A stretch of DNA of 64,000 bases from contig OZ024743.1 of the NCBI GenBank assembly GCA_964016885.1, forward strand, positions 20,584,001 through 20,648,000, written 5' to 3'. Made by a program: the position numbers and the translations under genes. Below are positions 13,846 to 61,225 of the stretch, one piece after another. Numbering within the stretch: the first letter of the stretch is position 1; every line of letters starts with the position of its first letter. The stretch is from Eledone cirrhosa. Lineage: Eukaryota. Below the pieces are notes generated by a model that ran no database searches, was not told the origin of the DNA, and saw nothing but the letters and a program-made list of their open reading frames with translations.

Positions 13846-16790
13846 CTAGCCTGTATAGGTTGGCCACTGGTGTAAGAGGGAGTTTGTTGCTGCTGCCCTT
13901 AGGTTTCCCTCGTGTCTTGCTGTGGGCTCAACCGGGATCCTGGATAACAAGGTGTCGAGATGTTTCTTAAAGACATCCACCTCCACGTCATGCAAGTCTC
14001 TCAGATGCCTCGGCAGCCTGTTGAAGAGTTGAGGGCCCTTGAATCCCAGGCTATTGCAATACCTGCTCCTTATTCTAGATGTAGAAGACGGGACCTTTGG
14101 CACCACACAGTGACGTCCCGTTCGACGGTTGGTCCAGCTCCCAATGCCAAAGTTTGGTGCTAGTCCCTCCAGGATTTTCCACATGTAGATCACTGCGTAT
14201 CTCTCCCGTCTTCGCTCCAAGGAGTAGAGGTTCAGTTCCTTTAGCCTCTCCCAGTAGCTTGTCTCCCTCATCTTGGCAATCCTCTTGGTGTAGCTTTGCT
14301 GGATTGCCTCAAGCTCCGTGGTTAGTTTGACACTATGGGGTGACCACAACTGGGAGCAGTAGTCCAGGCGGCTTAGGACAAAAGTCCTCCACAGTGTCAA
14401 CATGGTGTCTCGATCTCTTGTTCGGAAAGTCCTCAAGATCCAGCCAGCGAGTTGTCTGCACGTTGTCGCCACTTTCATGTGTGAGGAAAAAGATGCATCA
14501 TCGCTCATGTCTATGCCCAGGTCTCGTATCGATTTTGACACGGGGATATCGGTCTCTCCTGGTCCTGTCTAGCTGTGTTCCACTATATTTGTGTTTGCAG
14601 GTTTGTATTCTAGGGCTTGGAATTTGCCAGCATTAAACTGCATGTTGTTTTCTTCCGCCCATCTGTATATGGCATCCAGATCCTGCTGTAAAAGGGCAGC
14701 GTCAGCCGGGTTTTTGATTGCCTGTGCTACCTTAGTGTCATCAGCATAGTTAGTGAGGGATGTTGTTGCATGCACCACAGAGGGCATGTCCGAGAGAGCC
14801 ACCAAAAACAGTAGTGGTCCCAGGACTGTCCCCTGGGGCACCCCACTTGTTATCGGTGTTTCCCTCGAGAGGGCCCCATTTGCTGCGACTGCTTTACTTC
14901 TGTCCCTTAGGAAGCCATGCAGCCACTCACCTACTTTTCCAGTTATGCCGAGTCCGTGTAGTTTGTGACATATCATTCCGTGGTCGACCTTGTCAAAGGC
15001 CTTCGCAAAGTCAAGATATATCACGTCCACATGTGAGCTGTCTAGTAGTTGTCTCAGTACCCAGTTGTAGTGATGTAGCAGCTGTGTAAGGCAGCTTCTT
15101 CCTGGGCGGAAGCCATGTTGCGTGCTAGTCAGGCGGTCATTTTCTTCGAGGAAAGTGATTAGTTTCTTTCTGACGACTCGCTCCATGACCTTACTGATAT
15201 GCGACGTCAGGGAGACTGGCCTATAGTTCTTGGCCTCCGATCTACTACCTCCTTTATGGATAGGGCATATTGTGCCTTCCTTCAGCTCCCTGGGTAGTAC
15301 ACCGCTAGCCAAGGAGCTTCTGAAGAGCATCTTCAGTGGAGTTGCTAAGGCCCGCTTACATATTTTTAAGAGAACTGCTGGGAATCCATCAGGTCCAGCA
15401 GCCGAGTCTGTTCTAATTTCATCAATGGCGTACACCACATCCTCCTCCGTTATGTCTATGTGGTTGATGGTTGCCATTTCTTGATGTAGTGTTGTGGCAT
15501 CAAAGAACTCCTCTGGCTTCGTTATTTGCATGTGCCTCAGTGGACATGTGAAGACACTTTTGTACTGTTCGTTCAGTATTTCACATATCTCTTGGGGGTT
15601 TTCGGTTAATGAACCGTCCGTGTGGAAGAGTGGCCCAATCTTGCAGTGTACTGAGGCAGTTCTTTTGCAAATTTAAAGAAGGCCTTAGGGTTTGTTTTAA
15701 TGTTTTCTATGGCCCTGTTCTCTTTCTTTGCCCTCTCATTCTCATGTGAAAGTTTGAGTGCAATCTTGGTGTCAAGTAGTGCACGTTTCAAATAGGATTC
15801 CTTCTTGGTTTTGTTTTGTTGACTATTCAACTGGTTTGAGAGTTTAGTTCTACGTCTCATAAGGATTTTCCTATCTCTGGGAATAAGATTTTTGTGTCTG
15901 TTTGCCTCTTTCTCCGGGACACACTTTTTGCATATGGTGTGTATCGTTGTCATGAAGTGTTGAAATTGTGTGTTAGTGTCTTGTGTGGCGGTGTTTTCAC
16001 TCCATGTTTGCTTCCGGATTTCACTCTTAATCTTTTTCCAGTTAGCCTTGTAGAAGTTAAGGCTGGATAGCGTCCCGGAGCTTCTTGGTGGTTTTGTCTC
16101 TGTTGGTTCTCTTGGACCACATATCATTAGCTCTACTAAGTTATGATCCGAGAGAATTGTTGGTGTCACCTTTACATTGTGGATGAGCACTTCGTTGTTT
16201 GTAAAACAGAGGTCCAGGACATTTTCGCCTCTTGTTGGGAGGAGTATTGCTTGCTCCATGAACAGCCTGTGTGTGAGGGCCAGCAGGGATTCCGTCTGTC
16301 TCTGTTCTATTGACGTCATTCCAGGGAGGAGGTGGCCCTCAGGCCATTTGACCTTTGGTAGGTTGAAGTCTCCCAGCAGTAGGATGTTGAGACCCTGGTC
16401 CAGTTTGTCAAGGACCTCTTCTATCCTACTTAGGCTATCCTCAAATTTACCCTCATGACTGGGGGCATCGGGCGGCCGATATGTGACACATATTACTGTC
16501 TGTAGTTGCTTCATATGTATTATCAGTGTGTCACAGATTGAGTTTGAATGTGTCAACAGTACAATTGGTGTTGACATCTTCACGGATATACAGAGCAACC
16601 CCACCATGAGTTCTCTCCTTCCTGTCCGAACGAAATACAGTATATTTCGGTATATGTATTTCTGCATCTGCTATACTGCTTGTCAGGTGCGTTTCGGTTA
16701 GTGCCATGCATAGTGCTTGATTGCTTATGGCTAAGTCTCCCAGGTAGGAAATTTTACTCATGTTACTCAGTTGAATTTCACCAGGCCCCT
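13846..16790 (-). pseudogene. LINE ORF2 (APE endonuclease + RT), broken into at least 4 frames
   Basis: ORF pieces 16531..16761, 15606..16667, 14569..15531 and 13846..14541. Confidence 0.9.
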
Positions 16791-21018: not shown

Positions 21019-24000
21019 AATTAATAAAAATAATGCCAAAGTTAAAGTCAAATTCACCTCGTGGACGACAATGCGAGCACTCCTCTTTGTTTCGTCCGCG
21101 GATGGCTAACATAACCCCATCTCCCCCCGCCCCCCACCGCCCCCACCCTCCAAACGCAATCCAAAACTTCAGTGTTGGTACCATAAATGTAGGCACCCTA
21201 AAGGGTCGCGCTAACGAGGTTGTAGAAATGCTTGAACGTAAGGAGGTCGATGTTTGTTGTATTCAAGAGACCAGGTGGAGGGGTGGGTCTGCTAGATTCA
21301 TTGAGAGTAAAAAACGATGTTATAAGCTTTTCTGGGTGGGAAACGACGATGGGCTGGGTGGAGTAGGAATCATGGTAGCAGAAAAGTGGGCAGATAAGAT
21401 AATAGACGTAAATAGAGTGAACGACAGAATAATTAAAATACGACTTGTCCTCAATAGAACTACGGTGACAGTAATATCTGCGTACGCACCCCAATCCGGA
21501 CTGCCCGGCACTATAAAAGACAGATTCTATGAGACACTGTTGCTAACTACCTCCCAAATATCTGACAGTGACTATATAATTATTGCAGGCGACCTAAATG
21601 GTCACGTTGGACAACATTGTGACGGCTACGACGAAATCCATGGAGGCTATAGGTTTGGTACTAGAAATGAGGAAGGCTCCAGAATCCTGGAATTCTGTGA
21701 TGCAAATAACCTAACTATCTGTAACACTAACTTCAAAAAACGGGACAATCACCTGATCACCTATAGATCCGGGGAACACACAAGCCAGGTAGATTATATC
21801 CTTACCAGAAGACGTGACAGAGTGTCTGTTGTAAACACTAAATCCCTCCCCCATGAAGAATGCACCTCCCAACATAGACTGATAATTAGCGACCTCATAG
21901 TCAGGACGAGACGTACTCAACAGCAGAAGAGGACTATCCTCAGGAGAAAAATATGGAAGCTAAAGGACACAGCCAGAAATAAATTTCAAAGCATATTACT
22001 TGATGCTTTCGACAGTAAGGAAGAACATTTAGAGTCGGACAATATAGAGGGACAGTGGGAATTTCTGAAAGCAAACCTGCTGTTGGCGACAGACGAAGTC
22101 TGTGGCTGGAGCAGGCCTGTAGGCAGGAGGAGAGTAACATGGTGGTGGAACAGTAAGGTGGAGGGGTCAATTAAGGCCAAAAAGCAGGCTTGGAAAGTAT
22201 GGCGGGATGGGGAAGTAGAGTAGACTATCAAGTGGCCAGGAGGGAAGCTAGGAGAGAAGTGTACTTAGCAAGAAGGGAAGCTGAGGAAAGAAAGTTCAAG
22301 CATGTTCTACAACGCGATGACCAAAAACGTGAGGTGTTCAGGATTGCTAGGCAATGCGTCAAGGAAAACCGTGATATTGTCGAGGAGAAGTGTGTACAAA
22401 ACGACGATGGCACACTTGCCATCAATGACGCTGATAAGAAGGTAGCTTGGAAGTGTCACTATGAAAGGCTACTAAATGAGGAGAATAAATGGGAGAAAGA
22501 CAGTCTCCCCCATATCGACCCAATAGAGGGACCAGCAGTGTTAGTCGAGGGGAGTATAATAAGTAAGGCAATCAAGGATATGAAGACGGGTAAGGCGGCT
22601 GGGCCTTCGGAAATAGTTGCTGAGATGCTGAAGGCATCTGGCACGGTGGGACACACCATGGTCACCCGCATAGTTAACCAAGTCGTACAGAATGGGGTTG
22701 TTCCGAAGGACTGGCATAGCAGCATCATCGTTAACTGTTATAAGGGTAAAGGAGACGCCCTAGATAGGAGTAACTATAGAGGCATTAAATTAATCGACCA
22801 GGTCATGAAGGTCACGGAAAAAGTAATAGCGCAACTAATCAGAGAGAGAATTGACCTAGATGAAATGCAGTTCGGGTTTGTGTCAGGCAAAAGTACCACA
22901 GACGCTCTTTTCATAGTACGACAACTACAGGAGAAGTACCTAGCTAAAGGTAAACCCCTCTACTTAGCTTTTGTCGACTTGGAGAAAGCCTTCGACAGAG
23001 TCCCCCGCTCCATTATCTGGTGGGCTCTTAGAAAACTAGGCGTTGACGAATGGCTTGTGAGGGCTATACAAGCCATGTATAAAGAAACAGTCAGCAAGGT
23101 TAGAATTAACAACGAATATAGTGAAGAGTTTAGCGTAAAAGTTGGCGTCCATCAGGGCTCTGTTCTCAGCCCCCTACTATTTATTATTGCCCTTCAGGCT
23201 ATAACAGAGGAGTTCAAGACAGGCTGCCCATGGGAACTCCTATACGCAGACGACCTGACACTCATAGCGGAATCAATGGCCGAGCTAGAGAAGAAATTCC
23301 AAACATGGAAGCACGGCCTAGAGTCAAAAGGACTTAAAATTAACCTGGCTAAGACCAAAGTTCTAGTTTGTAGGAAAGAAAACAAGGCGGCGGTCCCTTC
23401 TGGGAAATGGTCGTGCTCGGTGTGTAGGAAAGGCGTAGGTAGAAACTCCATTTTATGTCCTAAATGCAAAGTATGGGTGCATAAAAGATGTAGTGGGATC
23501 ACAGGTAAGCTAACTAACAACATAGATTTTACATGTGGCCGGTGTTCTGGTGCAATAAGTAGCAGCAAGTGCCCACAAAATACTAGCTCTTTCAATTGCG
23601 CAGAGGGTTCTATAGAAATAATGGACAGCTTCCGTTACCTGGGCGATAAAATCAGCAGTGGGGGAGGGTGCTCTGAAAGTACTGTAGCTAGAGTCAGAAC
23701 TGGTTGGAAAAAGTTCAGAGAGCTTATACCACTATTAGCTGCTAAAGGGTTCTCCCTAAAAATGAAAGGCAGGTTGTACGATGCCTGCATACGAACAGCA
23801 ATGTTGCATGGCAGTGAGACCTGGGCATTGTTTGCAGAGGATATACGCAGACTAGAGAGGAACGAAGCTTGCATGCTCCGCTGGATGTGTAACAGTAATA
23901 TACGTGAATGGCAAAGCAGAAACGAACTAAGGAAAAAATTATAGATAAGAGGGATCAGATGTTGTTTACTCGAGAGAAGGCTACGTTGGTATGGACACGT

Positions 24001-24585
24001 GATGCGCATGAAAGTCGATAGCTGTATAACAAAGTGCAGGGCAATAAAGATAGACGGTAGTCACGGAATAGGCAGACCTAGAAAAACCTGGGACGAGCTG
24101 ATAAACTCCGACATCACACACTTACACCTCTCCAAGACAATGTCACTGGACCGAGACCTTTGGCGGTACTCAGTAACAGAGAAGACCCGCCTTACCTAAA
24201 TATATAGTAAAACCTACTCCAGCCAGTAGGCATCTCTAACAAAATACACCCCGTCCCACCACCCCCACCCCATCCACACCACCCCGTTCTATGTAAAGTT
24301 ATGTTGGTGCCGCGCCATCCAGGCCGAAACAAATGAGATCGTGTAGGTGTCACGACAAAAAAACACACAGTCCATGCTGTAATGTGGCCGTGTAGGCAGC
24401 ACCGTAAAAACCTCCCAGACCCACACTGTAAATGTGGTTGGTGTTAGGAAGGGCATCCAACTGTAGAAAACCTGCCAGACAGTCCTATGCGAGCAAGACA
24501 ATCACTCTTGCCTCAAGTGGGACTACCCCCGTCCAAAACCATGCAAGCGTGGAACACGGACGTTAAACGTTGATGATGATGATGA
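21019..24585 (+). mobile_element. Near full-length RTE-clade LINE (RTE-A)
   Basis: APE + RT + ~390-bp 3' UTR + (TGA)n tail. Confidence 0.92.
21033..24199 (+). pseudogene. RTE ORF (APE - RT - PHD-like finger); frameshift at ~22210 and stop at 23942
   Basis: GTINVGTL, CIQETRW, SAYAPQ, AGDLNGHVG, QVDYIL, SQHRL; then [21 protein letters not shown]; C-terminal GRPRKTW..DRDLWR. Confidence 0.92.
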
Positions 24586-33375: not shown

Positions 33376-35603
33376 TCATTTCTCCTGTCCATCCGTTTGA
33401 CGCTATGGATTTCCACAATGCAAACTGGGAAGCGATCAGTCATGATCTTGCACATGTCGACTGGTCCTTCACGCACACTCATACACCCACTAACATCAAA
33501 AAGTCCTGGCAGACATTTGTGGACACTGTTACAAACATATGTGCTAAACACACCCCATTAAGAACTATAAACAAATCTAAGAGCAGAATCCCTAGAAATA
33601 GAAAAACGCTCATCAGAAAAATTAAGAGAACGAACAAAAAAATCAACAATCTGAAATACTGTCAGCAGCAACACATCAACTTGACTGCCATTTCATCACT
33701 AGAGATTAAAAAACATAACCTCCAAAACAACATAATGTCCCTCATCAACAATCAGAGAAGAGCTGAAGAGGCCTGGGCCATTGAGAAGATCAAACTCAAT
33801 CCCAAAGTGTTCTTTTCATTTGCAAAAAAACACAAAATCACTGGCTCTACTGTTGGCCCTCTAATTGATGAAAATGGCACTCTTCAAGACAATGCTAAAA
33901 CCATGGGTGAGATACTGCAGAAACAATACTGCTCTGTTTTCAGCAATCCTGATATGGCCGATCTGGGCTGTATCGGCGATGTTACTCCCCATTACACCTT
34001 ATCGGACATAACGTTTGGCGCCCCTGATGTCTTGGCGGCAATAAAGGAAATCAAGCATAATTCAGCAGTAGGTCCCGATAGGTTCCCTGCTTGTGTCTTG
34101 AAGGCGTGTCAACACCAACTTGCTTCTCCTCTTGCCAATCTGTGGCGGAACTCACTGGATGCTGGATATGTGCCAGAAAACCTTCTATCCCAGTCTGTTG
34201 TCCCAGTTTTCAAAAAGGGAAACAAATCCCTTGCCGTGAATTACCGTCCAATCTCACTCACCTCTCATATCATTAAGGTATTTGAGCGAGTGGTAAGATC
34301 GCGAATGACCCACTTCCTTGAGAGTAACAATATGCTGAACTCCAACCAGCATGGATTCCGTAATGGAAGGGATTGCCTGACGCAACTACTGCATCACTTT
34401 GATGACATTTTGAGAGCCTTGGGAGAGGGTTCCAACACTGATGTTATCTACCTTGATTTCAGCAAGGCCTTTGACAGGGTTGATCATAACATTCTACTGA
34501 GAAAGCTGTCCAATATTGGTGTCACTGGAAAGCTGCTGCAGTGGATCAAGAGCTTCCTGTCAAACAGAACCCAACATGTTGTAGTTGAGGGAGTCAAATC
34601 AAGCCCAGCCAAAGTCAGTAGTGGAGTCCCACAAGGCACTGTGTTGGGCCCACTTCTCTTCATCATCTATATTAATGACATCACTGACATCATCAAACAC
34701 AGCAACATTAAAATTTTCGCTGATGATTCCAAGCTCCAAAAGGTCATCAATGGCGTGGATGACCGGATAAGCCTTCAGTCAGACCTACTGGCTGTTACCC
34801 AATGGGCAGAAAAGAACAACATGTTACTGAACGAAGACAAATTCGAACTGATCCACTTTGGAAAAGAGGATGCTCTGAAACTCCCGTACTCCCTTCCCTC
34901 CGGGGAAACTCTCGTGGCATCTAACAACATCAGAGACTTGGGAGTAACCGTGGACAGCAACATAAGCTGGACCACGCATATAAGCAGCAAAGTTGACATG
35001 GCCCGCAGAATGTGTTCCTGGATCCTCAGAACCTTCCAGTCGAGAGATTCCCGCACCATTATCCTTCTCTTCTCTACTTTCGCCCGACCACACCTTGAAT
35101 ACTGTTGTCCACTGTGGTCTCCCCACACGAAACAAAGTATCATGAAACTTGAAGCTCCTCAAAGGGCAATCACGAAAAAGATAGATGGCATGTCAGACCT
35201 TGACTACTGGGGTCGATTGGAAAACCTGAAACTTTACTCACTCCAACGTCACCGTGAGCGTTATATTATCTGCATGATGTGGAAAATGTTCCATCATCAC
35301 TGCCCAAATGATGTTGGCATCGCCTTCAAGATACACCCAAGGCTTGGGCCCCGTGCTATCCGTCCCATTCAAAAATCTAAATCGCAACTCATAACAACAA
35401 TACGGCACAATTATTTCACCTCAATCGGCCCTGCTCTCTTCAACATCACACCAGGACACGTCAAAACAGAAACTGACCACACAAAATTCAAGAAGTCTTT
35501 GGACAAATTCCTCCAAGTAATCCCGGACAAACCACCCACACCCGGATATGTCTCCGCAAACAGTAATTCTCTTCTCGAATGGGCCATGGTGCCCAAATCC
35601 TGA
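33375..35603 (+). CDS. LINE ORF2, partial (RT and C-terminal domain, ~740 aa)
   Basis: [71 protein letters not shown]. Confidence 0.9.
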
Positions 35604-41007: not shown

Positions 41008-44761
<3,754 letters not shown>

Positions 44762-47730: not shown

Positions 47731-49334
47731 CATCATCATCATCACCGTTTTACGTCCGTTCTTCCACGCTAGCATGGTTTAGACGGGTTGTCCTGTTGTG
47801 GGTAGTGTCTGGTCGGCTGACCATGCTTTGCTCATACAGGAACTGATCTGGCTTGATTTCTACAGCTGGATGCCCTTCCTAACACCAACCTCATTTACAG
47901 TGAGTGCTGGGTGCTTTTTCGTGGCGCCTACACGTCCACTTTACAGTGTGGGCTGGGTGCTTGTTTGCCGTGGCACCTCCACGACCACCTTGCGGTGGGG
48001 GGAGTGGGGGCATATTGTTTATATGCTTCAGCATGTACCCATGTGAGGTCGGGTACCCTTTATTACTGCGTGACGCCAGAAGTCACGGTCGTGTGTCATT
48101 GACTTTGAGAGGTGTAGTTGGGTAAGGTCGGCTTTTATCACCTCATCCCAGGTCATCTTGGGTCTCCCCACTCCGCGGTTTCCATCAACTTCTAGTGCTC
48201 TGCACCTTTTTATGCAGCTGTCATCCTTCATACGCATCACATGTCCATACCAGCGTAACCGCCTCTCCTGCACGCAGCATTTGATTCCTTTTATGCTCAG
48301 TCTCTCTCTCAATTCCTTTATGCTTTGTCGTTCACGTATATTACTGTTACACATCCATCGGAGCATGCAGGCTTCGTTTCTCTCTAATCTACGTAAGTCT
48401 TCCACCTTCAGCGCCCAGGTCTCACTACCATGCAACATCGCTGTTCGGATACACGCATCATACAGTCTGCCTTTCATTCTGAGGGAGAAGCCTTTTGCAG
48501 CTAGCAGTGGTAGTAGTTCCCTAAACTTCTTCCATCCCGTTCTTACCCTAGTTATTGTACCTTCTGAGCACCCACCTCCGTTGCTAATTCGGTCACCTAG
48601 GTAGCAGAAGCTGTCTACTGTTTCTACAGGGCCCTCCCAGAGATTGGTGGTACTTGTTTCCTGTGGCTGTTTGCTTGCTGTTTCAGCACAGCTGCTGCAT
48701 GTGAATCCTACATTCTTAATTAAGCTTCCTGAGGTCCCGCTACATCTCTTGTGTACCCATTGTTTGCATACCTTTCCTACATACTGAGCAAGGCCATTTC
48801 CCTGAGGGGATCTGGGTTCTGTTTTCTCGTCTACTTACAAGGACCTTAGTCTTTGTCATGTTGACTTTGAGGCCCTTTCTCTCTAGTCCCTGCTTCCAGG
48901 TTTGGAATTTATTCTCTAGTTCTACTATAGATTCAGCTATGAGTGCGAGGTCATCAGCATACAGGAGTTCCCATGGGCATCCGGTCTTAAACTCCTCCGT
49001 TATTGCCTGCAGGACTATGATGAACAGGAGAGGGCTAAGAACAGAGCCCTGGTGGACCCCAACCTGTACGCTAAATTCCTCGCTATACTCATTGCTAATC
49101 CTAACTTTGCTGACTGCTCCCCTATACATGGCTTGTACCGCTTTCACAAGCCATTCATCTACTCCTAGTTTTCTAAGAGCCCACCAGATTACTGCACGTG
49201 GAACTCTGTCAAAGGCTTTCTCAAGGTCGACAAATGCCAAGTAGAGTGGCTTACTTTTAGCTAGGTACTTTTCCTGTAATTGCCTCACAAGGAAGAGGGC
49301 ATCAGTGGTGCCTTTCCCTGGTACAAACCCAAAT
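47731..49334 (-). mobile_element. 5'-truncated RTE-B with a small deletion in the finger region
   Basis: Reverse-complement match to ~43123-44761. Confidence 0.9.
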
Positions 49335-49610: not shown

Positions 49611-49626
49611 GATATATATATGTATT

Positions 49627-49660
<34 letters not shown>

Positions 49661-49922
49661 TGTATTTATATATATATATATGTATTTATATATATATATA
49701 TGTATTTATATATATATATATGTATTTATATATATATATATATATGTATTTATATATATATATATATATATGTATTTATATATATATATATATGTATTTA
49801 TATATATATATATGTGTATTTATATATATATATATATATGTATTTATATATATATATATATATGTATTTATATATATATATATATATATATATGTATTTA
49901 TATATATATATATATATATATG

Positions 49923-49957
<35 letters not shown>

Positions 49958-50038
49958 TTATATATATATATATATATATATGTATTTATATATATATATA
50001 TATATATATATGTATTTATATATATATATATATATATG

Positions 50039-50111
<73 letters not shown>

Positions 50112-50146
50112 TTATATATATATATGTATTTATATATATATATATG

Positions 50147-50177
<31 letters not shown>
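49611..50177. repeat. (TA)n array with ATGTATTTAT units
   Basis: Direct reading. Confidence 0.9.
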
Positions 50178-50406
50178 GTAAGTATGTATGTATACGTACA
50201 TACATATATGTATACAGACGTACAGTAGCATGCATATAATATATATATATACATACATACAGGTACACATATATATGTACGTATCAGTTTAGCAGACGTT
50301 TCTTATAACGCCCGCTTTGTCTGTTTGTAAACAAACGGACAGCCTGATTTATGCCGTACAGTGTTAAGGCAACCACGTCACCTTTTTGTTCAACACTGAC
50401 ACAGGA

Positions 50407-50449
50407 ACGATGTACTAGTTTCAAGCTTCTTAGCTATCATCAGCACCGT
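50407..50449 (-). ncRNA. Minimal type-I hammerhead (R1)
   Basis: ACGGTG CTGATGA TAGCT-AAGA-AGCTT GAAA CTAG TA CATCGT on minus. Confidence 0.85.
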
Positions 50450-50684
50450 ATACCCTTTTGCCAGATGGTTGAACTTTCGAAAGTATATACTTTCCTTAGG
50501 AAAATTAACGGCTGAGCAGCCTAATTTGCATATCGCGTGAGTTCAGTCGGCCAGGCGTACCGAAAACGATAAGTTGTAATATAACGAAACAAAATTTCAT
50601 TTCTCACTCTTAGTACAGCACTTACTTAAATGTAAGTATGTATGTATACGTACATACATATATGTATACAGACGTACGGTAGCA

Positions 50685-50732
<48 letters not shown>

Positions 50733-50893
50733 CATACATACATACAGGTACACATATATATATGTACGTATCAGTTTAGCGGACGTTTATTATAACGCCC
50801 GCTTTGTCCGTTTGTAAACAAACGGACAGCCTGATTTATGCCGTACGGTGTTAAGGCAACCACGTCACCTTTTTGTTCAACACTGACACAGGA

Positions 50894-50936
50894 ACGATGT
50901 ACTAGTTTCAAGCTTCTTAGCTATCATCAGCAGCGT
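50894..50936 (-). ncRNA. Minimal type-I hammerhead (R1), one stem I change
   Basis: Same motif. Confidence 0.8.
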
Positions 50937-51039
50937 ATACCCTTCTGCCAGATGGTTGAACGTTCGAAAGTATATACTTTCCTTATGAAAATTAACGGCT
51001 GAGCAGCCTAATACGTTCAACCATCTGGCAGAAGGGTAT

Positions 51040-51082
51040 ACGGTGCTGATGATAGCTAAGAAGCTTGAAACTAGTACATCGT
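51040..51082 (+). ncRNA. Minimal type-I hammerhead (R1)
   Basis: acggtg ctgatga tagctaagaagctt gaaa ctag ta catcgt. Confidence 0.85.
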
Positions 51083-51264
51083 AACTGTGTCAGTGTTGAA
51101 CAAAAAGGTGACGTGGTTGCCTTAACACCGTACGGCATAAATCAGGCTGTCCGTTTGTTTACAAACGGACAAAGCGAGCGTTATAATAAACATCCGCTAA
51201 ACTGATACGTACATATATATATGTGTATATGTGTACCTGTATGTATAAATATATATATATATAT

Positions 51265-51544
51265 TTAAATTTATTTCATTCCTTGTATTTTGATCATGCT
51301 TTATTTTTATTTTTATTTTTATTTTTATTTTTATTTTTAATTTCATTCGCACCGTTTCCTTTCGCTATATGTCTCTCCACCACTCCCCTACACACCCTTT
51401 GAACTCTGTTCCCACACACTTCTCACCTGAGGAAGGGATTATACCCGAAACGTCGTTCCCCACCAACACCCCACTCTCCAGTGCGTGAAATTAATAAACA
51501 TTCGTTGTACTGCCTCTCTGTTTTGTTCCTGTTCAAATTTTTCC

Positions 51545-51549
<5 letters not shown>
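51265..51549 (+). mobile_element. Solo PLE-type terminal repeat with a decayed HHR (51425-51456), inserted in the TA tract of an R1 unit
   Basis: CTGAGGA AGGG-attata-CCC GAAA CGTC followed by AATAAA and a T-rich end; stem I is weak. Confidence 0.6.
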
Positions 51550-51580
<31 letters not shown>

Positions 51581-51750
51581 TGCTACTGTACGTCTGTATA
51601 CATATATGTATGTACGTATACATACATACTTACATTTCGGTACGCCTGGCCGACTGAACTCACTCGATATGCAAATTAGGCTGCTCAGCCGTTAATTTTC
51701 ATAAGGAAAGTATATACTTTCGAACGTTCAACCATCTGGCAGAAGGGTAT

Positions 51751-51793
51751 ACGGTGCTGATGATAGCTAAGAAGCTTGAAACTAGTACATCGT
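51751..51793 (+). ncRNA. Minimal type-I hammerhead (R1)
   Basis: Same motif. Confidence 0.85.
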
Positions 51794-52720
51794 TCCTGTG
51801 TCAGTGTTGAACAAAAAGGTGACGTGGTTGCCTTAACACCGTACGGCATAAATCAGGCTGTCCGTTTGTTTACAAACGGACAAAGCGGGCGTTATAATAA
51901 ACATCCGCTAAACTGATACGTACATATATATATGTGTACCTGTATGCATATATATATATATATATATGCATGCTACTGTACGTCTGTATACATATATGTA
52001 TGTACGTATACATACATACTTACATTTAAGTAAGTGCCGTACTAAGAGTGAGAAATTACATTTCGTTTCATTATATTACAACTTATATATATATGTATTT
52101 ATATATATATATATGTATTTATATATATATATATATGTATTTATATATATATATGTATTTATATTTCGTTTCTGAATTTGTTTAGCAAGATTCTTTATCT
52201 GAAATCGTGTGTTGAAACCGATATTGTTATACTTTGGGAGGGTCATGTTGCCAATAAGAAACACACGCACCAGTTGCTTTCACTTCAATTTAATTTAATA
52301 TATATTTATAAATTTACAAATTTATAAATTTCTGGTTGGTTGGTTGGTTCCACAACCAGATAGTTGTTTATATATATATAGTCATAGTTCTTTCGTCACA
52401 CACTCTGTGACCTCTTCAGTGACTGGGGATTTCTTTCTTCGTTTCTGTGCCTTTCCTTTCTTCTATCCTACGCCATTTTGTTTGTGTGTGGGTTGCGTGC
52501 TCAGTTTGCGCATGCGCCACATCCGGGTGTCTGTGTGTGTTTGTGTTCATTTTTCTATTTTTCTATTTATATTTGTTTGTTTATTTATTTATTTATTGTT
52601 GGTTGGTTGTTTGTTCTATGTGTGTGTGTGTTTTCATTTTGTCTTGTGTGTGTTTTCATTTTGTGTGTGTTTTCAATTGTAAGTTGTTTATATATGTGTG
52701 TGTGTGTTTTCATTTTGTCC

Positions 52721-53254
52721 TTAATTGTAAGTTGTGATGTTGCTGTTCCACTCATATTTTCTATTTAATTTTGGTTTTAATTCTTTTATGCTTACTGCCT
52801 CTGTAATTTGCCTAAACATTGCGTCTTTCTTGTGTGTGGATTCTATTTTTATTTCTATGCTCTCTAATTTACCCCTGTGTTCTATCTTAGCATGTTGGTA
52901 GAGCACAGATGATTCTTTACTATCTTGGAGGTCTCGCCAGTGTTCATTTATTCGTTCCCCTATACTACGAGCTGTCTCACCTATGTACACTATATTTTTG
53001 TTTCTACATTGTCCCTCAGTACATCTTATGCTATATACTACATTTCTAGTTTTACAGTTAATATGGGGGCTTATTTTACAGGTTATACATTTCTTATCTA
53101 TACATGAGGGTCTTTGGAACGGGTATGTCTTGCTAATAAGTGTTTTTACGGAGGTACCAGGTCTTTCTACTATCTTAATATTGAGATTATGTTTCTTTAG
53201 GGCCCTTCTAAATTTGTAGGCTAGTTCGCCTCTAGGGGTTGTATTGATGAACAT
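52721..53254 (-). CDS. PLE GIY-YIG endonuclease fragment (left arm)
   Basis: [49 protein letters not shown]. Confidence 0.85.
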   Translation of the reverse strand: MFINTTPRGELAYKFRRALKKHNLNIKIVERPGTSVKTLISKTYPFQRPSCIDKKCITCKISPHINCKTRNVVYSIRCTEGQCRNKNIVYIGETARSIGERINEHWRDLQDSKESSVLYQHAKIEHRGKLESIEIKIESTHKKDAMFRQITEAVSIKELKPKLNRKYEWNSNITTYN

Positions 53255-53406
53255 TACACTCTGGTATTTATTGCTATCATACCATGAGTTTATTCTATTG
53301 GCCTTGTTCTTAGTTCTTAGTTCTTTGTTCTTAGTTCTTAGTTCTTTCTAAGAACAAGGCCAATAGAATAAACTCATGGTATGATAGCAATAAATACCAG
53401 AGTGTA

Positions 53407-53940
53407 ATGTTCATCAATACAACCCCTAGAGGCGAACTAGCCTACAAATTTAGAAGGGCCCTAAAGAAACATAATCTCAATATTAAGATAGTAGAAAGAC
53501 CTGGTACCTCCGTAAAAACACTTATTAGCAAGACATACCCGTTCCAAAGACCCTCATGTATAGATAAGAAATGTATAACCTGTAAAATAAGCCCCCATAT
53601 TAACTGTAAAACTAGAAATGTAGTATATAGCATAAGATGTACTGAGGGACAATGTAGAAACAAAAATATAGTGTACATAGGTGAGACAGCTCGTAGTATA
53701 GGGGAACGAATAAATGAACACTGGCGAGACCTCCAAGATAGTAAAGAATCATCTGTGCTCTACCAACATGCTAAGATAGAACACAGGGGTAAATTAGAGA
53801 GCATAGAAATAAAAATAGAATCCACACACAAGAAAGACGCAATGTTTAGGCAAATTACAGAGGCAGTAAGCATAAAAGAATTAAAACCAAAATTAAATAG
53901 AAAATATGAGTGGAACAGCAACATCACAACTTACAATTAA
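53407..53940 (+). CDS. PLE GIY-YIG endonuclease fragment (right arm)
   Basis: Translation identical to the left arm. Confidence 0.85.
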   Translation: MFINTTPRGELAYKFRRALKKHNLNIKIVERPGTSVKTLISKTYPFQRPSCIDKKCITCKISPHINCKTRNVVYSIRCTEGQCRNKNIVYIGETARSIGERINEHWRDLQDSKESSVLYQHAKIEHRGKLESIEIKIESTHKKDAMFRQITEAVSIKELKPKLNRKYEWNSNITTYN

Positions 53941-54234
53941 GGACAAAATGAAAACACACACACACATATATAAACAACTTACAATTGAAAACACACACAA
54001 AATGAAAACACACACAAGACAAAATGAAAACACACACACATAGAACAAACAACCAACCAACAATAAATAAATAAATAAACAAACAAATATAAATAGAAAA
54101 ATAGAAAAATGAACACAAACACACACAGACACCCGGATGTGGCGCATGCGCAAACTGAGCACGCAACCCACACACAAACAAAATGGCGTAGGATAGAAGA
54201 AAGGAAAGGCACAGAAACGAAGAAAGAAATCCCC

Positions 54235-54279
54235 AGTCACTGAAGAGGTCACAGAGTGTGTGACGAAAGAACTATGACT
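54235..54279 (+). ncRNA. Minimal type-I hammerhead (P3); mirror copy at 52380-52424 on minus
   Basis: AGTCA CTGAAGA G GTCAC..GTGAC GAAA GAAC TA TGACT. Confidence 0.75.
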
Positions 54280-54679
54280 ATATATATATAAACAACTATC
54301 TGGTTGTGGAACCAACCAACCAACCAGAAATTTATAAATTTGTAAATTTATAAATATATATTAAATTAAATTGAAGTGAAAGCAACTGGTGCGTGTGTTT
54401 CTTATTGGCAACATGACCCTCCCAAAGTATAACAATATGTATTTATATATATATATATATGTATTTATATATATATATATGTATTTATATATATATATAT
54501 ATGTATTTATATATATATATATATGTATTTATATATATATATATATGTATTTATATATATATGTATTTATATATATATATATATATGTATTTATATATAT
54601 ATATATATATATAAATACATATATATATATATATAAATACATATATATATATATATAAATACATATATATATATATATG

Positions 54680-55429: not shown

Positions 55430-55750
55430 TGGTGCATGACTCTGTAGTTAATGCAGTGGGCTTACAATTGTGAGGTTGTGAGTTCGAGACTGGGTGATGT
55501 GTTGAGTCTGTGAGCAAGACACTTATTTCACACTGCTCCAATTGACGCAGCTGTAGAAATAAGTTGCGACATCACTGGTCTCAAATTGTCTCAGCCTTTG
55601 CTTTTCCATTGGACAACATTTGTAGCATGGAAAGGGGAGAGTGGTATGTATGGGTGACTGTTGGCTTTCCACAAACAAAACTTACCTAGATTTGTGTCTC
55701 AGAGGGGGAACTTTCTCGATGTAAATCCCATAGTCATTCATGACCACAGG
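55430..55750 (+). mobile_element. Older tRNA/CORE SINE family 2, interrupted near its 3' end by RTE-B
   Basis: Homologous to 62063-62353; terminal ggggtc..tttac resumes at ~57064. Confidence 0.7.
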
Positions 55751-57063
55751 GCAATAACGGAGGAGTTTAAGACCGGATGCCCATGGGAACTCCTGTATGC
55801 TGATGACCTCGCACTCATAGCTGAATCTATGGTAGAACTAGAGAATAAATTCCAAACCTGGAAGCAGGGACTAGAGAGAAAGGGCCTCAAAGTCAACATG
55901 ACAAAGACTAAGGTCCTTATAAGTAGACGAGAAAACAGAACCCAGATCCCCTCAGGGAAATGGCCTTGCTCAGTATGTAGGAAAGGTGTAGGTAGGAACT
56001 CCATTCTTTGCCCCAAATGCAAACAATGGGTACACAAGAGATGTAGCGGGATCTCAGGAAGCTTAATTAAGAATGTAGGATTCACATGCAGCAGCTGTGC
56101 TGAAACAGCAAGCAAACAGCCACAGGAAACAAGTACCACCAATCTCTGGGAGGGCCCTGTAGAAACAGTAGACAGCTTCTGCTACCTAGGTGACCGAATT
56201 AGCAGCGGAGGTGGGTGCTAAGAAAGTACAATAACTAGGGTAAGAACGGGATGGAAGAAGTTTAGGGAACTACTACCACTGCTAGCTGCAAAAGGCTTCT
56301 CCCTCAGAATGAAAGGCAGACTGTATGATGCGTGTATCCGAACAGCGATGTTGCATGGTAGTGAGACCTGGGCGCTGAAGGTGGAAGACTTACGTAGATT
56401 AGAGAGAAACGAAGCCTGCATGCTCCGATGGATGTGTAACAGTAATATACGTGAACGACAAAGCATAAATGAATTGAGAGAGAGACTGAGCATAAGAGGA
56501 ATCAAATGCTGCGTGCAGGAGAGGCGGTTACGCTGGTATGGACATGTGATGCGTATGAAGGATGACAGCTGCATAAAAAGGTGCAGAGCACTAGAAGTTG
56601 ATGGAAACCGCGGAGTGGGGAGACCCAAGATGACTTGGGATGAGGTGATAAAAGCCGACCTTACCCAACTACACCTCTCAAAGTCAATGACACACGACCG
56701 TGACTTCTGGCGTCACGCAGTAATACAGGGTACCCGACCTCCCATGGGTACATGCTGAAGCATATAAACAATATGCCCCCCCCCCCCCCCACCGCAAGGT
56801 GGTCGTGGAGGTGCCACGGCAAAAAAGCACCCAGCCCACACTGTAAAGTGGACGTGTAGGCGCCACGAAAAAGCACCCAGCACTCACTGTAAATGAGGTT
56901 GGTGTTAGGAAGGGCATCCAGCTGTAGAAATCAAGCCAGATCAGTTCCTGTATGAGCAAGGCATGGTCAGCCGACCAGACACTGCCCACAACAGGACAAC
57001 CCGTCTAACCCATGCTAGCGTGGAAGAACGGACGTAAAACGGTGATGATGATGATGATGATGA
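55750..57063 (+). mobile_element. 5'-truncated RTE-B, nearly identical to the 42233 copy
   Basis: [13 protein letters not shown]; stop at 56219; (TGA)n. Confidence 0.92.
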
Positions 57064-57439
57064 GGGGTCATTTTACTGTTGTCTCAGGTATTTTCTTGTG
57101 TTTGTAAACTATACCTTGCTCTATTTTACCAGAGAATGCTAAAATACAGATTTGTACATAGATATGGTATAGCCGTATAGTTACAAATATCCTTTCAGAA
57201 GCACATAGTTTCTGGTTCAGTTTCCATCTGTCTTGTATAACTCTGGGTCAACTAATACCTTGTGTGTAAATTTAGTAATTCTGAAATTGTAAGATATTCT
57301 GTTGTGTTTCTATATATATATATGCTTGTATTTGTGTGTGTGTGTGTGTGTGTGTAATTATATATATATAATTAAGTTATATCTCTATAAATACAGTGTG
57401 TGTAACAGAGTGCTCTAACGTGTATAAATATATACACAT

Positions 57440-59294
57440 ATGTGTCCGGGATTATGCCGGTGTACTTAGTGTCACGAATGATCAGAAAAAGGAGGCCTGG
57501 AAATGTCATTATGAGAGACTGATGAATGTGGAGAACGAATGGGAGAGAGAGAAATTACCCTTGGTAGATTCGACAGAGGGACCAGCTATTGAGATTGACG
57601 AATATAGGGTCCAAGAGGCGATTAGGGAAATGAAAAATGGTAAGGCAGCCGGACCATCGGGAATAGTTGCTGAGATGCTGAAGGCATTAGGGGACGTAGG
57701 GACTAAACTGGTTGCACGCATCATCAATCAGGCTATATATGGTGGTGTCATACCCAAAGACTGGTGCAGCAGTATTCTCATAAATTGCTACAAAGGTAAA
57801 GGGGATGCTTTGGAGAGGAGCAATTATAGGGGTATAAAACTGATAGATCAGGTTATGAAAGTGGGAGAAAGGATTTTAGCACAACTAATTAGAGAAAGGG
57901 TCAAACTAGATGAGATGCAGTTTGGTTTTGTGCCTGGGAAGAGTACAACAGATGCCCTCTTCTTGGTGAGACAATTGCAAGAGAGGTTCTTAGAGAAGAA
58001 TAAGCCACTATACTTAGCCTTTGTTGACCTAGAGAAGGCCTTTGATAGGGTACCCCGATCTGTCATCTGGTGGTCCCTAAGGAAGCTGGGTGTTGAGGAA
58101 TGGCTTGTGAGGACAGTGCAAACTTTGTACAGAGGTACTCTCAGTAAAGTCAGGGTAGGAATGGAGTTTAGTGAGAAATTCCAGATAAAAGTAGGAGTAC
58201 ATCAGGGTTCGGTCCTCAGCCCTCTCTTGTTCATTATAGTCCTCCAAGCCATAACAGAGGAGTTTAAGACTGGCTGTCCATGGGAACTTCTCTATGCTGA
58301 TGATCTGGTTCTTATAGCAGAATCAGTAGAGGAGCTAGAGAATAAATTCTGGCTATGGAAACAGCAGTTGGAAGCAAAAGGACTGAGAGTGAATCTAGCT
58401 AAGACAAAAGTGTTGATGAGTAGAAAAGAGGACAAAACCCTGATTCCGTCAGGGAAATGGCCATGTTCGATATGCAGAAAAGGAACTGGCATAAATTCTA
58501 TAAAATGCACACAATGCAGATCCTGGGTACACAAGAGATGTAGTGGGATAGCAGGCAAACTAACAGGTAGGGAGAAATATGTATGCAGTAGATGTACAGG
58601 GAAATTAGACAGTAGAAGTCGCACTGATAGACACATTTTTCAAATGCAAGAGGGCGCTATAGAAGTGGTGGATAGCTTCCGGTACCTAGGAGATCAGATT
58701 AGCATGGGAGGAGGGTGTTCCGAGGCCATAGTATCTAGAATAAGGACGGGTTGGAAGAAGTTTAGGGAGCTGCTTCCTCTGTTGACGAAGAAGGGTTTCT
58801 CCCTGCGTACGAAAGGCCGGTTGTATGATGCCTGTGTGAGGAGCGCGATACTGCATGGTAGCGAGACATGGGCAGCAACTGCAGAGGATATGCGACGGCT
58901 GGAGAGAAATGAGGCAAGCATGCTCCGTTGGATGTGCAGTGTAAATGTGCGTGAACGACCCAGCATAAATGTGTTGAGAGAGAAACTGTGTCTGAGAGGG
59001 ATAGAATGTAGTGTACGGGAGAGGAGACTGAGGTGGTATGGACATGTGATGCGCATGGAGGATGACCGATGGGTGAAGAAGTGCCAGGAAATGCCAGTTG
59101 AAGGAAGACGTGGTAGAGGTAGACCACGACAAACATGGGCGGAGGTGGTGAGAACAGACCTCAGATCATTGAAGCTCACGGTGGAGATGACGAGGGACCG
59201 TGACGAGTGGAGAGATGCTGTGCTGAATAAGACCCGTCCCACCCTTGCAAGCAGGGAAAAGCGGACGTAAAATGATGATGATGATGATGATGAT
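57440..59294 (+). mobile_element. 5'-truncated RTE-C LINE; ORF open to 59270 and running into the (TGA)n tail
   Basis: RT motifs, PHD-like finger, [27 protein letters not shown]. Confidence 0.92.
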
Positions 59295-59519
59295 CTAATA
59301 TATAGGCATATAAACGGGCCACAAAATATGAATTTCCCTCTAAATTGGAAAAAATTATAATCTTTAATTGAATTTCGGATCTATTTGGACCTGTATATCA
59401 TCCAATCAGCCACAAGTAAACATGTATTTGATGGGTATATATACTAATTTGCTCATAGTATTATTCTGAAATGGATGTACTAATCTGTGTATAATTAGCA
59501 CCCTCATTGCTTCTTAATC

Positions 59520-61225
59520 GTTATCATCTTTTTTACTCCTGTTTTTCTACACTTTCATGGTTTGGATGGGTTCTTTTCAGCTCAGCCTCTCTTCACTTGT
59601 CGCTTTCCTTTATCCTTTCCTCTGTGAGTCTCAGCGATTTGAGATCGGCTCTGACCACCTCTGTACAGATTAACCTTTGCCTATCTCTACTGTGTCTTCT
59701 TATCAGACAGATTTCCAGATACTTCTTCAACCAGTGATCATCATCCATGTTCATCACATGTCCACACAAACAGTCTTCTCTCTTGCACACCACATAGCAT
59801 TCCCCTTAAACCCTGTTTTTCCTGCAGTTCATCCAAGCTCTGCCTTTGTCTCACATTTACATTGCACATCCAGAAAAGTATGGTAGCTTCATTTCTCTCC
59901 AACCTACACATGTCCTCTGCAATCACTGGCCATATTCCACTACCATTCAGCATTGCACTTCTTACACAGGCATCACACAGCCATCCTTTTGTATGTAGGG
60001 AGAAACCTTTTGTTGTCAACAATGGGAGTAGCCCTCTAAACTTCTTCCATCTTGTCATTATTCTAGCTAGTATACTCTTGAAGCACTCTCTACCGCTGCT
60101 AATTAGGTCACCTAGATTGCAGAAGCTATCAACCACTTTTATGGATCCTTCATGATATTGGAAAAAGTTTATATCACTGACACTCATCTCTTCAATTAAC
60201 CCTGTGCATCTTTTGCATACAAATTCTTCTTATTTGTCTACCTATTATCCCACATATCTTGTGAACATTGTATAGAGTTTACTCCTATTTCCTTTTCTAC
60301 ATATTAAGCAGGGCCACTTCCCTGAAGGAATCAGCATCCCATGTTCTTTCCCACTTACTAGCATTTTGTTTTGACTAAGTTTACTCTCAATCTTTTTTAT
60401 TCCAAATTCTGTTTCCATAGTCAGAACTTATTCTCTAGTTCTTTTATGAATTCAGCTATAAGGACCAGATCATCTGCATTGAGATATTCCCAAGAACAGC
60501 CAGTCTTAAACTCCCCTGTAATGGCTTAGAGAACTATGATGAACAGCAGTAGTCTCAGAACTGAATCCTGATGAACTCCTACCTGCACCTTGAATTCCTC
60601 ATTAAACTCATTTCCTACTCTCACTAACTGTCAACTCCTCTGTACATGGCTTGCACTGTTCTCACAAACCATTCTTTTTCACCTAATTTCATTAAGGATC
60701 ACCAGATAATAGAATGAGGTACTCTGTCAAAAGTCTTTTCTAGATCAACAAAAGTCATATATAGTAGCTTATTCTTGGCTAAGAACTTCTCTTCTAGTTG
60801 TCTCACTAAGAAGAGGGCATCTGTAGTACTTTTCCCAGGCATAAAACTTAATCGGATTTCATCTAAATTGAAATATCCCCTAATTAGCTGTGCTAGAACT
60901 CTTTCTGTCACTTTCATAACTTGGTCCATCAGTTTTATTATTCTGTAGTTGCTTCTTTCTAGAGCATCCCCTTTACTCTTATAGCAATTTATGATTATAC
61001 TGCTGCACCAGTCATTGGGTATGACAGTCTTGCATTACCTGATTGACTATGTGGGTTACTAGTTTGACTGCTACCCCTCTCAATGCTTTTAGCATCCCAG
61101 CAGTTAACTCTGGTGGTCCTGCAGCTTACCCATTGTTCATCTTCTTGATTGATTCTTTGACCATAAAACTGTCAATTTCAATAGCTGGTCCCTCTGTTTG
61201 GGTAGGTTAGAGTAATCTCTCTTCT
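59520..61225 (-). pseudogene. Old decayed RTE LINE
   Basis: [39 protein letters not shown]; many stops. Confidence 0.85.

What the first reader, a model, noticed from the sequence alone, without database searches (positions are those of the whole stretch)
50178..52087. Retrozyme-like ~454-bp tandem ribozyme unit living in (TA)n arrays
Seen: an ORF-less unit repeated head-to-tail (50178, 50632), then flipped at ~51012 and repeated again. Each unit has one intact minimal type-I hammerhead with a palindromic CTAG loop and GUA site. Each also has further hairpins (gcggacgtt/aacgcccgc, tccgtttgt/acaaacgga, gttcaac/gttgaac enclosing the HHR, gaaagtatatactttc, tatgaaaatta..ggctg-ag-cagcc..taatttgcata) and an internal (TA)n tract. 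The array ends fall at different points of the unit. Established: metazoan non-LTR retrozymes are tandem HHR units that self-cleave to monomers, circularise and are thought to be mobilised by PLE RT. Inference: this is a retrozyme/circular-RNA family, probably cephalopod, that carries its own TA homology to the target. I do not know of a description of it.
Basis: partly seen in the sequence, partly recalled or inferred. Interest (0 to 1): 0.85.

Follow-up and report, generated by a model that had tools for sequence, protein, structure and literature searches.

The report
Octopod retrozyme with fixed Penelope-type ends
This is one insertion of a protein-free repeat of 450-500 bases whose predicted self-cutting RNA motif occurs about 40,000 times in this probably octopod genome; its copies end at two fixed points inside TA runs, the footprint of Penelope-type jumping genes, which likely copy it into DNA, possibly from a circular RNA that has not yet been observed.

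Summary
The repeat is real: four ORF-less units in two back-to-back arms (50178-51012 minus strand, 51013-52086 plus strand), each with a type I hammerhead. Exact-pattern counts: 443 for this subfamily, 40,386 for the clan (control 27). Hammerhead stems covary across subfamilies (7 of 15 pairs). Ends are not permuted: 3' ends fall at two fixed sites 63 nt apart, the Penelope (PLE) 'tail' signature; 32 of 47 sampled tailed insertions end at the second site on an inverted arm. The internal (TA)n tract is not at those junctions; other PLEs insert into it. Best reading: a non-LTR retrozyme mobilised in trans by a PLE reverse transcriptase. A circular template is suggested, not shown: one young insertion has five identical units sharing a 7-nt deletion at the cut site, but long arrays show higher-order variants. 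No partner PLE was identified; transcription, cleavage and circularisation are untested. New member of a known class; seven literature searches found no cephalopod description (Repbase/Dfam not searchable). This scan reported related families on other DNA of this genome at least eight times.

The parts
50178..50631 (-). Copy 1, full unit; its 3' end at 50178 is the untailed end of the insertion and abuts a long TA-rich array
   Evidence: model positions 1-447
50407..50449 (-). Type I hammerhead of copy 1; predicted cut between 50413 and 50412; matches subfamily majority
50632..51012 (-). Copy 2, 5'-truncated at model position about 106 (inversion junction)
50894..50936 (-). Hammerhead of copy 2; predicted cut 50900/50899; one stem I mismatch
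51013..51264 (+). Copy 3, first part, 5'-truncated at model position about 156, running into its internal TA tract
51040..51082 (+). Hammerhead of copy 3; predicted cut 51076/51077; two changes just 3' of stem I
51265..51546 (+). Separate insertion inside the TA tract of copy 3: 3' end of a Neptune-like PLE with its own hammerhead core at 51427
   Evidence: same kind of end found downstream of a GIY-YIG ORF inserted in a unit's TA tract on C2
51547..51634 (+). Copy 3, last part (rest of TA tract to unit end)
51635..52023 (+). Copy 4, model positions 67-447 (about 62 nt missing at its start)
51751..51793 (+). Hammerhead of copy 4; predicted cut 51787/51788; matches subfamily majority; sits at the tip of a longer hairpin
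52024..52086 (+). 63-nt 'tail' (start of a next unit); tailed 3' end of the insertion, abutting TA
49612..50177 (.). Left TA-rich target array
52087..52164 (.). Right TA-rich target array, shared with the tailed end of a neighbouring ORF-bearing PLE fragment
13260..13745 (-). Copy of sister family B (467-nt unit, same layout, hammerhead core at 13517); used for comparison, not part of the same insertion

Best explanation
This is one insertion of an ORF-less, hammerhead-bearing repeat with two back-to-back arms whose outer ends lie at two fixed sites 63 nt apart inside TA runs; it is likely a non-LTR retrozyme that a Penelope-type (probably Neptune-like) protein copies in trans, possibly from a circular RNA. 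Steps: (1, inferred) tandem copies are transcribed on the hammerhead strand. (2, predicted) The hammerhead has a one-pair helix III with a palindromic loop and, in clan A, a U.U base to helix II, so it would cut poorly alone and better as a dimer in multimeric RNA, releasing monomers or dimers that would be ligated to circles that then resist cutting. (3, inferred from PLE biochemistry) The PLE endonuclease nicks both strands of a TA run; reverse transcription starts at two internal RNA sites, one per strand, giving one tailed and one untailed arm. (4, shown in DNA) Each arm stops at a scattered position, often past the cut site and sometimes after several units, and the arms join head to head. 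(5, shown in DNA) Some arrays later carry higher-order variants, and the internal TA tract collects other PLE insertions.
For: Fixed ends: of 47 tailed ends sampled in order along C1, 36 have an inverted arm, 32 of these end at model positions 442-447 and 29 of those abut TA; the same two ends occur in the window's own subfamily and in family B. This is the published PLE layout (PMC8557442), and the tail corresponds to two internal RT start sites with both strands cut and extended (PMC11167929). The ORF-bearing PLE fragment next door (52165-54438) has the same tailed/untailed pair with a tail of about 60 nt. A young PLE with a 1217-aa open frame and at least 69 copies at 99% or more identity is in the genome. 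Selection on the ribozyme fold: 94% of cells paired, 7 of 15 pairs with changes on both sides, covariation score 0.39 against 0.15 (0 of 500 shuffles; slid controls 0.01-0.12) over 13 hand-picked variants; a second organism keeps mainly the hammerhead and two hairpins. Circle: 5' junctions do not pile up at the cut site (3 of 76, 1.2 expected) and 52 of 76 arms read through it; L227 has five identical 465-nt units that all lack 7 nt ending at the cut site, and no other copy with that deletion and those flanks is among the 100 deletion variants in the assembly; L082 has no substitutions among 6 monomers from both arms. The same helix features give weak monomer and stronger dimer cleavage, with circles in vivo, in axolotl (PMC7229834).
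Against: No transcript, cleavage or circle was observed. No autonomous PLE sharing sequence with the unit ends was found. Read-through of the cut site fits uncleaved linear RNA equally well, and for the one PLE tested in vitro unprocessed RNA is the main substrate and the hammerhead is dispensable; 8 of 9 Xenopus retrozyme dimers did not cleave. Long arrays are not uniform copies of one monomer: a 31-unit B array has shared variants with roughly 7-unit periodicity, another alternates 467/480-nt units, and an A array has 36 singleton and 6 shared variants in 7 monomers; a 43-kb satellite of this subfamily exists. In the three other multi-hammerhead insertions checked (L231, L244, L246) the cut-site deletion is in one unit only. 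No significant A-to-G editing bias (62 against 46, p = 0.10; 27 against 25 in this subfamily). The covariation set is related by descent and was chosen by hand. The 47-end census is mostly sister subfamilies and was selected on a tail followed by TA.
Confidence: 0.55

Rival explanations
1. Same non-autonomous PLE-mobilised element, but the template is uncleaved linear multimeric RNA. The hammerhead acts at another step or rarely; multimers come from read-through of arrays, template jumps and later unequal crossing-over.
For: [quoted passage not shown] Dimer-period and 7-unit-period arrays and a 43-kb satellite. Most insertions hold 0-2 hammerheads (43 of 47). Cut-site deletions are rare (100 variants) and unit-private in 3 of 4 multi-hammerhead loci.
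Against: Compensatory conservation of the whole hammerhead across subfamilies implies it matters for spread; L227 has no parent array in this assembly; daughters of linear templates cannot be longer than their parents, yet young multimers recur (inference).
Confidence: 0.33
2. The unit is just the pseudo-LTR of an autonomous PLE family that was not sampled; the copies are 5'-truncated fragments of it.
For: All end features are those of PLEs; Xenopus retrozymes match pLTRs (10.64898/2026.07.22.740005). Searches only score the best candidates.
Against: Units follow each other head to tail with no ORF between them, up to dozens of times; arms run from the end of one unit straight into the next; eight PLE protein queries against 220 sequences (867 kb) found no ORF running into a unit, and the eight nearby PLE fragments read were separated by TA runs or other sequence.
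Confidence: 0.07
3. One reading: circles are primed at arbitrary points using the unit's own TA tract, or the family is a hairpin-rich satellite or MITE spreading without RNA.
For: The unit does hold a TA tract, 5' junctions are scattered, and satellite-sized arrays exist.
Against: 3' ends are fixed and lie outside the tract; family B lacks a long tract; one-sided truncation, tail and inversion are retrotransposition marks; no terminal inverted repeat other than the arms.
Confidence: 0.05

Closest known systems
Metazoan non-LTR retrozymes: coral, mussel, axolotl (Cervera and de la Pena 2020, PMC7229834; parts 2-3 of 6, Discussion and passages read; supplement not readable) and vertebrate survey (Li, Clavereau, Pollet 2026, 10.64898/2026.07.22.740005; parts 1-3 of 5 read; supplements closed)
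   Same: ORF-less tandem units of a few hundred bases, one type I hammerhead per unit, GC below 50%, tens of thousands of copies, PLEs in the same genome; helix III like axolotl HHR_Amex1 and U.U helix II base like HHR_Amex2.
   Different: Unit slightly longer than their invertebrate range (170-400 nt); here the insertions show PLE tail-and-inversion ends, which the parts of those papers that I read do not describe; no pLTR homologue found here; RNA, cleavage and circles not shown here.
EN+ Penelope-like elements (Neptune, Hydra, Naiad, Poseidon) and non-autonomous Chlamys elements such as MRC1 (Craig et al. 2021, PMC8557442; passages and Hydra section read)
   Same: Partial tandems, inverted 5'-truncated arm, tail at one end only, (TA)n insertion bias, multicopy head-to-tail non-autonomous forms.
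   Different: No RT or endonuclease ORF; tail 63-70 nt instead of 30-40; no 3' similarity to an autonomous family found; canonical-like hammerhead.
Poseidon from Anolis carolinensis, in vitro (Frangieh et al. 2024, PMC11167929; parts 1-3 of 4 read)
   Same: Two adjacent internal RT start sites defining the tail, both strands cut and extended, AT-rich targets, no homology needed between RNA start site and DNA.
   Different: Autonomous, start sites inside the ORF; circular and trans templates not tested there.
Newt satellite 2 (snRNA-type promoter with octamer; recalled, not read)
   Same: Tandem hammerhead unit; an octamer-like ATGCAAAT is nearly invariant in clans A and B.
   Different: This host's U1/U2 promoters carry no octamer, and their proximal and distal motifs do not match the unit.

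Membership tests
Non-LTR retrozyme | Tandem units of a few hundred bases, each with a type I hammerhead | tested here: met
   17 of 47 sampled insertions hold two or more hammerheads
Non-LTR retrozyme | No protein-coding capacity | tested here: met
   Longest ATG ORFs in circularised monomers 54 aa (A) and 20 aa (B), not shared between clans
Non-LTR retrozyme | GC below 50%; no LTR pair | tested here: met
   AT 59-72% per unit; layout is tandem/inverted. PBS and PPT were not searched for
Non-LTR retrozyme | Dispersed high copy number with PLEs in the same genome | tested here: met
Non-LTR retrozyme | Transcribed and accumulates as monomeric linear and circular RNA | not testable with these tools
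   No RNA holder listed; genomic hints only
Non-LTR retrozyme | Self-cleavage in vitro | not testable with these tools
   Fold and covariation only
Canonical type I hammerhead (definition in PMC4209133, passages read) | Invariant core, helix I about 6 bp with loop 1, helix II about 4 bp, helix III 1-2 bp with palindromic loop | tested here: met
   core invariant in 13 of 13 rows; helix I 6 bp plus loop and 3-bp extension; helix II 4-5 bp
Canonical type I hammerhead | G10.1-C11.1 pair; Rfam gathering score | tested here: not met
   U.U in 8 of 13 rows (clan A, incl. the window), G-C in clan B; no Rfam hit at gathering
Minimal PLE hammerhead (min-HHR) | Helix II 7-8 bp with 5' unpaired base, helix I 4-5 bp with poorly defined loop 1 | tested here: not met
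Non-autonomous PLE | Tail at one end and inverted 5'-truncated arm | tested here: met
   32 of 47 tailed insertions; window itself
Non-autonomous PLE | Insertion bias for (TA)n | tested here: met
   29 of 32 untailed ends abut TA, an end not selected for TA; 4,203 forward-strand tail-plus-TA matches
Non-autonomous PLE | 3'-end similarity to an autonomous family | tested here: inconclusive
   None with the Neptune-like and Hydra-like ends seen; PLE families of the genome only partly sampled
Autonomous PLE | RT plus GIY-YIG ORF between repeats | tested here: not met
snRNA-promoter-driven satellite (newt type, recalled) | Host snRNA proximal and distal elements inside the unit | tested here: not met
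   Matrices from 9 U1/U2 promoters score the units no better than shuffles (54-193 of 200 as high); no octamer in 12 promoters. U6 not examined

The most novel reading that the evidence does not exclude
Octopods host a clan of about 40,000 retrozyme units whose ribozyme cuts only in multimers, so monomer circles persist; a Penelope RT rolls round such a circle from two fixed start sites, one on each strand of a cut TA run. Insertion L227, five identical units all missing 7 nt at the cut site, would be a genomic fossil of one trimmed and re-ligated circle, giving direct evidence for the circle-templated step that has only been proposed for animal retrozymes and a mapped 70-nt signal for loading any circular RNA onto a PLE enzyme.
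Probability: 0.45. Interest if true: 0.72.

Novelty: new member of a known kind. Interest (0 to 1): 0.46.

Why it matters
Animal retrozymes are proposed to move through circular RNA copied by PLE enzymes, but the papers read here support this by co-occurrence and pLTR similarity. This clan shows the PLE enzymatic footprint on the ORF-less elements themselves and maps two predicted RT start sites to the base, so a trans-mobilisation and rolling-circle assay with a purified PLE protein can be designed directly. It also marks a large, young repeat clan (at 420-500 nt per unit, roughly 0.6% of the assembly, my estimate) that no Rfam hammerhead model detects at threshold. The class and the PLE tail mechanism are already published, so the surprise is moderate.

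Tried and rejected
Expression: no RNA holder listed; this is no evidence either way. Partner PLE: the young 1217-aa Neptune-like family, a second Neptune-like fragment and several Hydra-like fragments share no detectable sequence with the unit; a family-profile search was not possible because the profile is not in the library; a cluster with apparent 4-kb spacing on C2 proved to be a 43-kb satellite of the unit, not ORF-separated repeats. snRNA-type promoter: rejected on U1/U2 evidence. A-to-G editing scars (lead from e1-8803865): not significant in my sample (subfamily A3 alone 16 against 6, p = 0.052). Ligation scars: by hand count, 63 of 96 distinct loci have a deletion that touches or spans the cut site, 27 of 54 among deletions up to 8 nt against about a third expected; microhomology hot spots and non-independent copies confound this, so inconclusive. 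A first within-array comparison was spoiled by truncated units and replaced. Intron reading of the 62-nt gap before copy 4: no AG acceptor, rejected (sequence). Rfam miRNA hits are TA-repeat artefacts far below gathering. Literature: searches found no description of a cephalopod retrozyme; the giant squid genome paper only counts 235 Hammerhead_1 hits (PMC6962438, passages). Repbase and Dfam could not be searched; the supplements of PMC7229834 and of the 2026 preprint could not be seen and might list cephalopod repeats.

Full report
OBSERVATION. The sequence holds four copies of one unit. Read on the hammerhead strand, the left arm runs on the minus strand from an internal junction at 51012 to 50178 (1.8 units); the right arm runs on the plus strand from 51013 to 52086. 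A profile built in a script from 60 distinct natural units (447 positions, TA runs shortened) places the hammerhead core at 189-219. On it the left arm ends at position 447, the right arm ends 63 positions into a further unit, and the two arms start at about 106 and 156. A 280-bp piece of another element interrupts the TA tract of copy 3, and positions 5-66 are missing before copy 4. The unit has no meaningful ORF and no Rfam match at threshold.

HOST AND ABUNDANCE. The genome is 3.0 Gb. The closest named relative of a window PLE protein is from Octopus vulgaris at 68% (1 of 120 listed hits), so an octopod host is inferred, not shown. The exact 36-nt hammerhead of this subfamily occurs 443 times (control 0); a looser core pattern occurs 40,386 times (control 27). 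The first 100 listed matches show clan A subfamilies (units about 420-500 nt) and clan B (466-467 nt), of which one copy lies at window 13260-13745. Runs of organism A carry the whole unit; a second organism B keeps mainly the hammerhead region and two hairpins.

RIBOZYME. Helix I has 6 pairs, then an internal loop and a conserved GG/CC extension; helix II has 4-5 pairs with an AANA loop; helix III is one A-U pair capped by palindromic CUAG. Over 13 variants chosen by hand from both clans, 7 of 15 pairs change on both sides; percentage paired and covariation score exceed all 500 shuffles, but the two measures that count pairs or types do not (50 and 266 of 500), and the rows are related, so this is support, not proof. 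By the definitions in PMC4209133 (passages) it is canonical-like, not minimal. A weak palindromic helix III impedes monomer cleavage and allows dimer cleavage; axolotl hammerheads with this helix III or with a U.U helix II base cleave 6% and 22% as monomers and much better as dimers (PMC7229834). Activity here is predicted only.

ENDS. In the 30 best-scoring loci of this subfamily, unit ends and tail ends either continue into the next unit (60 and 23 cases) or stop in TA (13 and 9), with 4 other cases each (two duplicate loci left out, one longer stretch added). For a less biased view I took the 47 distinct tailed ends in the first 100 rows of a tail-plus-TA search (C1, first 35 Mb); they are mostly sister subfamilies. 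36 of 47 have an inverted arm, 32 of those end at positions 442-447, and 29 of those abut TA. The 76 inner junctions are scattered: 3 lie within 3 nt of the cut site against 1.2 expected, and 52 arms read through it. Boundaries are profile estimates, and seven short sense arms were dropped by my score filter (seen by eye). Clan B has the same two ends about 70 nt apart, including a 31-unit array. In both clans the untailed end lies in the loop of a small hairpin.

WHO COPIES IT. Tail at one end, inverted 5'-truncated arm and TA bias are the published marks of PLEs; TA bias is reported for Neptune, Naiad and Hydra (PMC8557442). In vitro a PLE protein cuts and extends both strands of AT-rich DNA and starts at two internal RNA sites that define the tail and have no homology to the DNA (PMC11167929). 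That explains both arms and removes the need for TA homology in the RNA. The neighbouring palindromic PLE fragment at 52165-54438 (GIY-YIG) shows the same end pair with a tail of about 60 nt. A family with a 1217-aa open frame and a CX4CxxC linker (Neptune-like by the motif) has 69 of 69 scored copies at 99% or more; Hydra-like fragments with CxCX5C also occur. Clade names rest on these motifs, not on a tree. None shares detectable sequence with the unit, so the partner is unidentified. No PLE ORF runs into a unit in 220 sequences searched. The internal TA tract acts as a target: a Neptune-like 3' end sits in it in copy 3, and a 2.2-kb fragment of a similar element with a GIY-YIG ORF sits in the tract of a unit on C2.

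CIRCLE OR LINEAR TEMPLATE. For a circle: no pile-up at the cut site; uniform young arrays (L082: 0 substitutions in 6 monomers of both arms; L117 and L118: 5 and 3 variants); and L227, a two-armed insertion with five identical 465-nt units, each lacking 7 nt that end at the cut site, whose short opposite arm matches them exactly but does not reach the ribozyme. Those five are the only matches with that deletion and those flanks among all 100 deletion variants. Local duplication after insertion or a parent absent from this haplotype could also give it. Against: in L231, L244 and L246 the deletion is in one unit only (20 loci fetched, chosen for deletions near the cut site, 16 with a single hammerhead in the insertion); long arrays show 2-unit and about 7-unit periodicity and a 43-kb satellite exists; uncleaved RNA is the main substrate for the anole PLE; 8 of 9 Xenopus dimers did not cleave. 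I put PLE mobilisation at about 0.9 and the circle step at about 0.6, hence 0.55 overall.

PROMOTER. An octamer-like ATGCAAAT is almost invariant in both clans while its hairpin partner strand has two forms, which hints at a DNA-level signal. The host's U1 and U2 promoters lack it and their motifs do not match the units, so the snRNA-promoter idea (newt satellite 2, recalled) is not supported. How the unit is transcribed is unexplained.

COMPARISON AND VERDICT. It works like, and meets every testable criterion of, a metazoan non-LTR retrozyme; the RNA-level criteria are untested. It also meets the end criteria of a non-autonomous PLE, in line with the 2026 preprint that derives retrozymes from PLEs in vertebrates. 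Seven searches found no cephalopod description; Repbase, Dfam and two sets of supplements were not visible. Eight earlier notes of this scan describe related families in this genome with the same reading; I had reached it before looking, they are not independent evidence, and their editing-scar claim was not reproduced here. Verdict: new member of a known kind, interest 0.46.

Noticed in passing
L227:2714-5548 (G000:C1, about 184,445,200-184,448,050): Young two-armed insertion with five identical units, each missing 7 nt that end at the hammerhead cut site; candidate trace of one trimmed, re-ligated circle.
   Followed up: yes
window:52165-54438: Palindromic Neptune-like PLE fragment (GIY-YIG ORFs on both strands, hammerheads at -52419 and +54240) with one tailed and one untailed end.
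   Followed up: partly
window:30479-32700 and L081: Young Neptune-like PLE; full copies have a 1217-aa open frame with an Asn-rich insert; 69 scored copies at 99% or more identity; good candidate for purification.
   Followed up: partly
window:7737-10170: Hydra-like PLE fragment (CxCX5C linker) with a long 3' region; a further hammerhead-like motif recurs at +10080, -19418, +19506, -26261, -46590.
   Followed up: no
L220-L224 (G000:C2:60,568,000-60,611,000): About 43-kb single-orientation satellite of the window's subfamily with decaying hammerheads and a Neptune-like PLE fragment in one unit's TA tract.
   Followed up: partly
L115, L218, L116 (G000:C1:5,738,000-5,752,900): Clan B insertion with 31 units on one arm and one on the other; untailed and tailed ends intact; variants recur with about 7-unit period.
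   Followed up: yes
L083:2637-5478: Clan B array alternating 467- and 480-nt units (dimer period).
   Followed up: partly
L184-L217 upstream of U1/U2; L067 and L180 3' regions: U1 and U2 promoters share a distal motif near -255 and a proximal motif near -57 and lack an octamer; the distal motif (TTACCTCCCTT) also occurs in the 3' regions of two Hydra-like PLEs.
   Followed up: no
L005:2050-2400, L014:2081, L006, L007:372, L010, L025, L027, L028: Several other short TA-inserting repeats with their own hammerhead-like cores; the genome holds many non-autonomous PLE-like families.
   Followed up: no
window:51634/51635: The stretch missing before copy 4 (model 5-66) almost equals the tail, which may record a jump between the two RT start sites.
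   Followed up: no
window:10595-12290, 21993-24585, 42247-44742, 47731-49334, 55750-61197: Many RTE-like LINE fragments, plus CR1-like LINE fragments at about 2993-4786, 13846-16670 and 33400-35603; family labels from my own knowledge.
   Followed up: no
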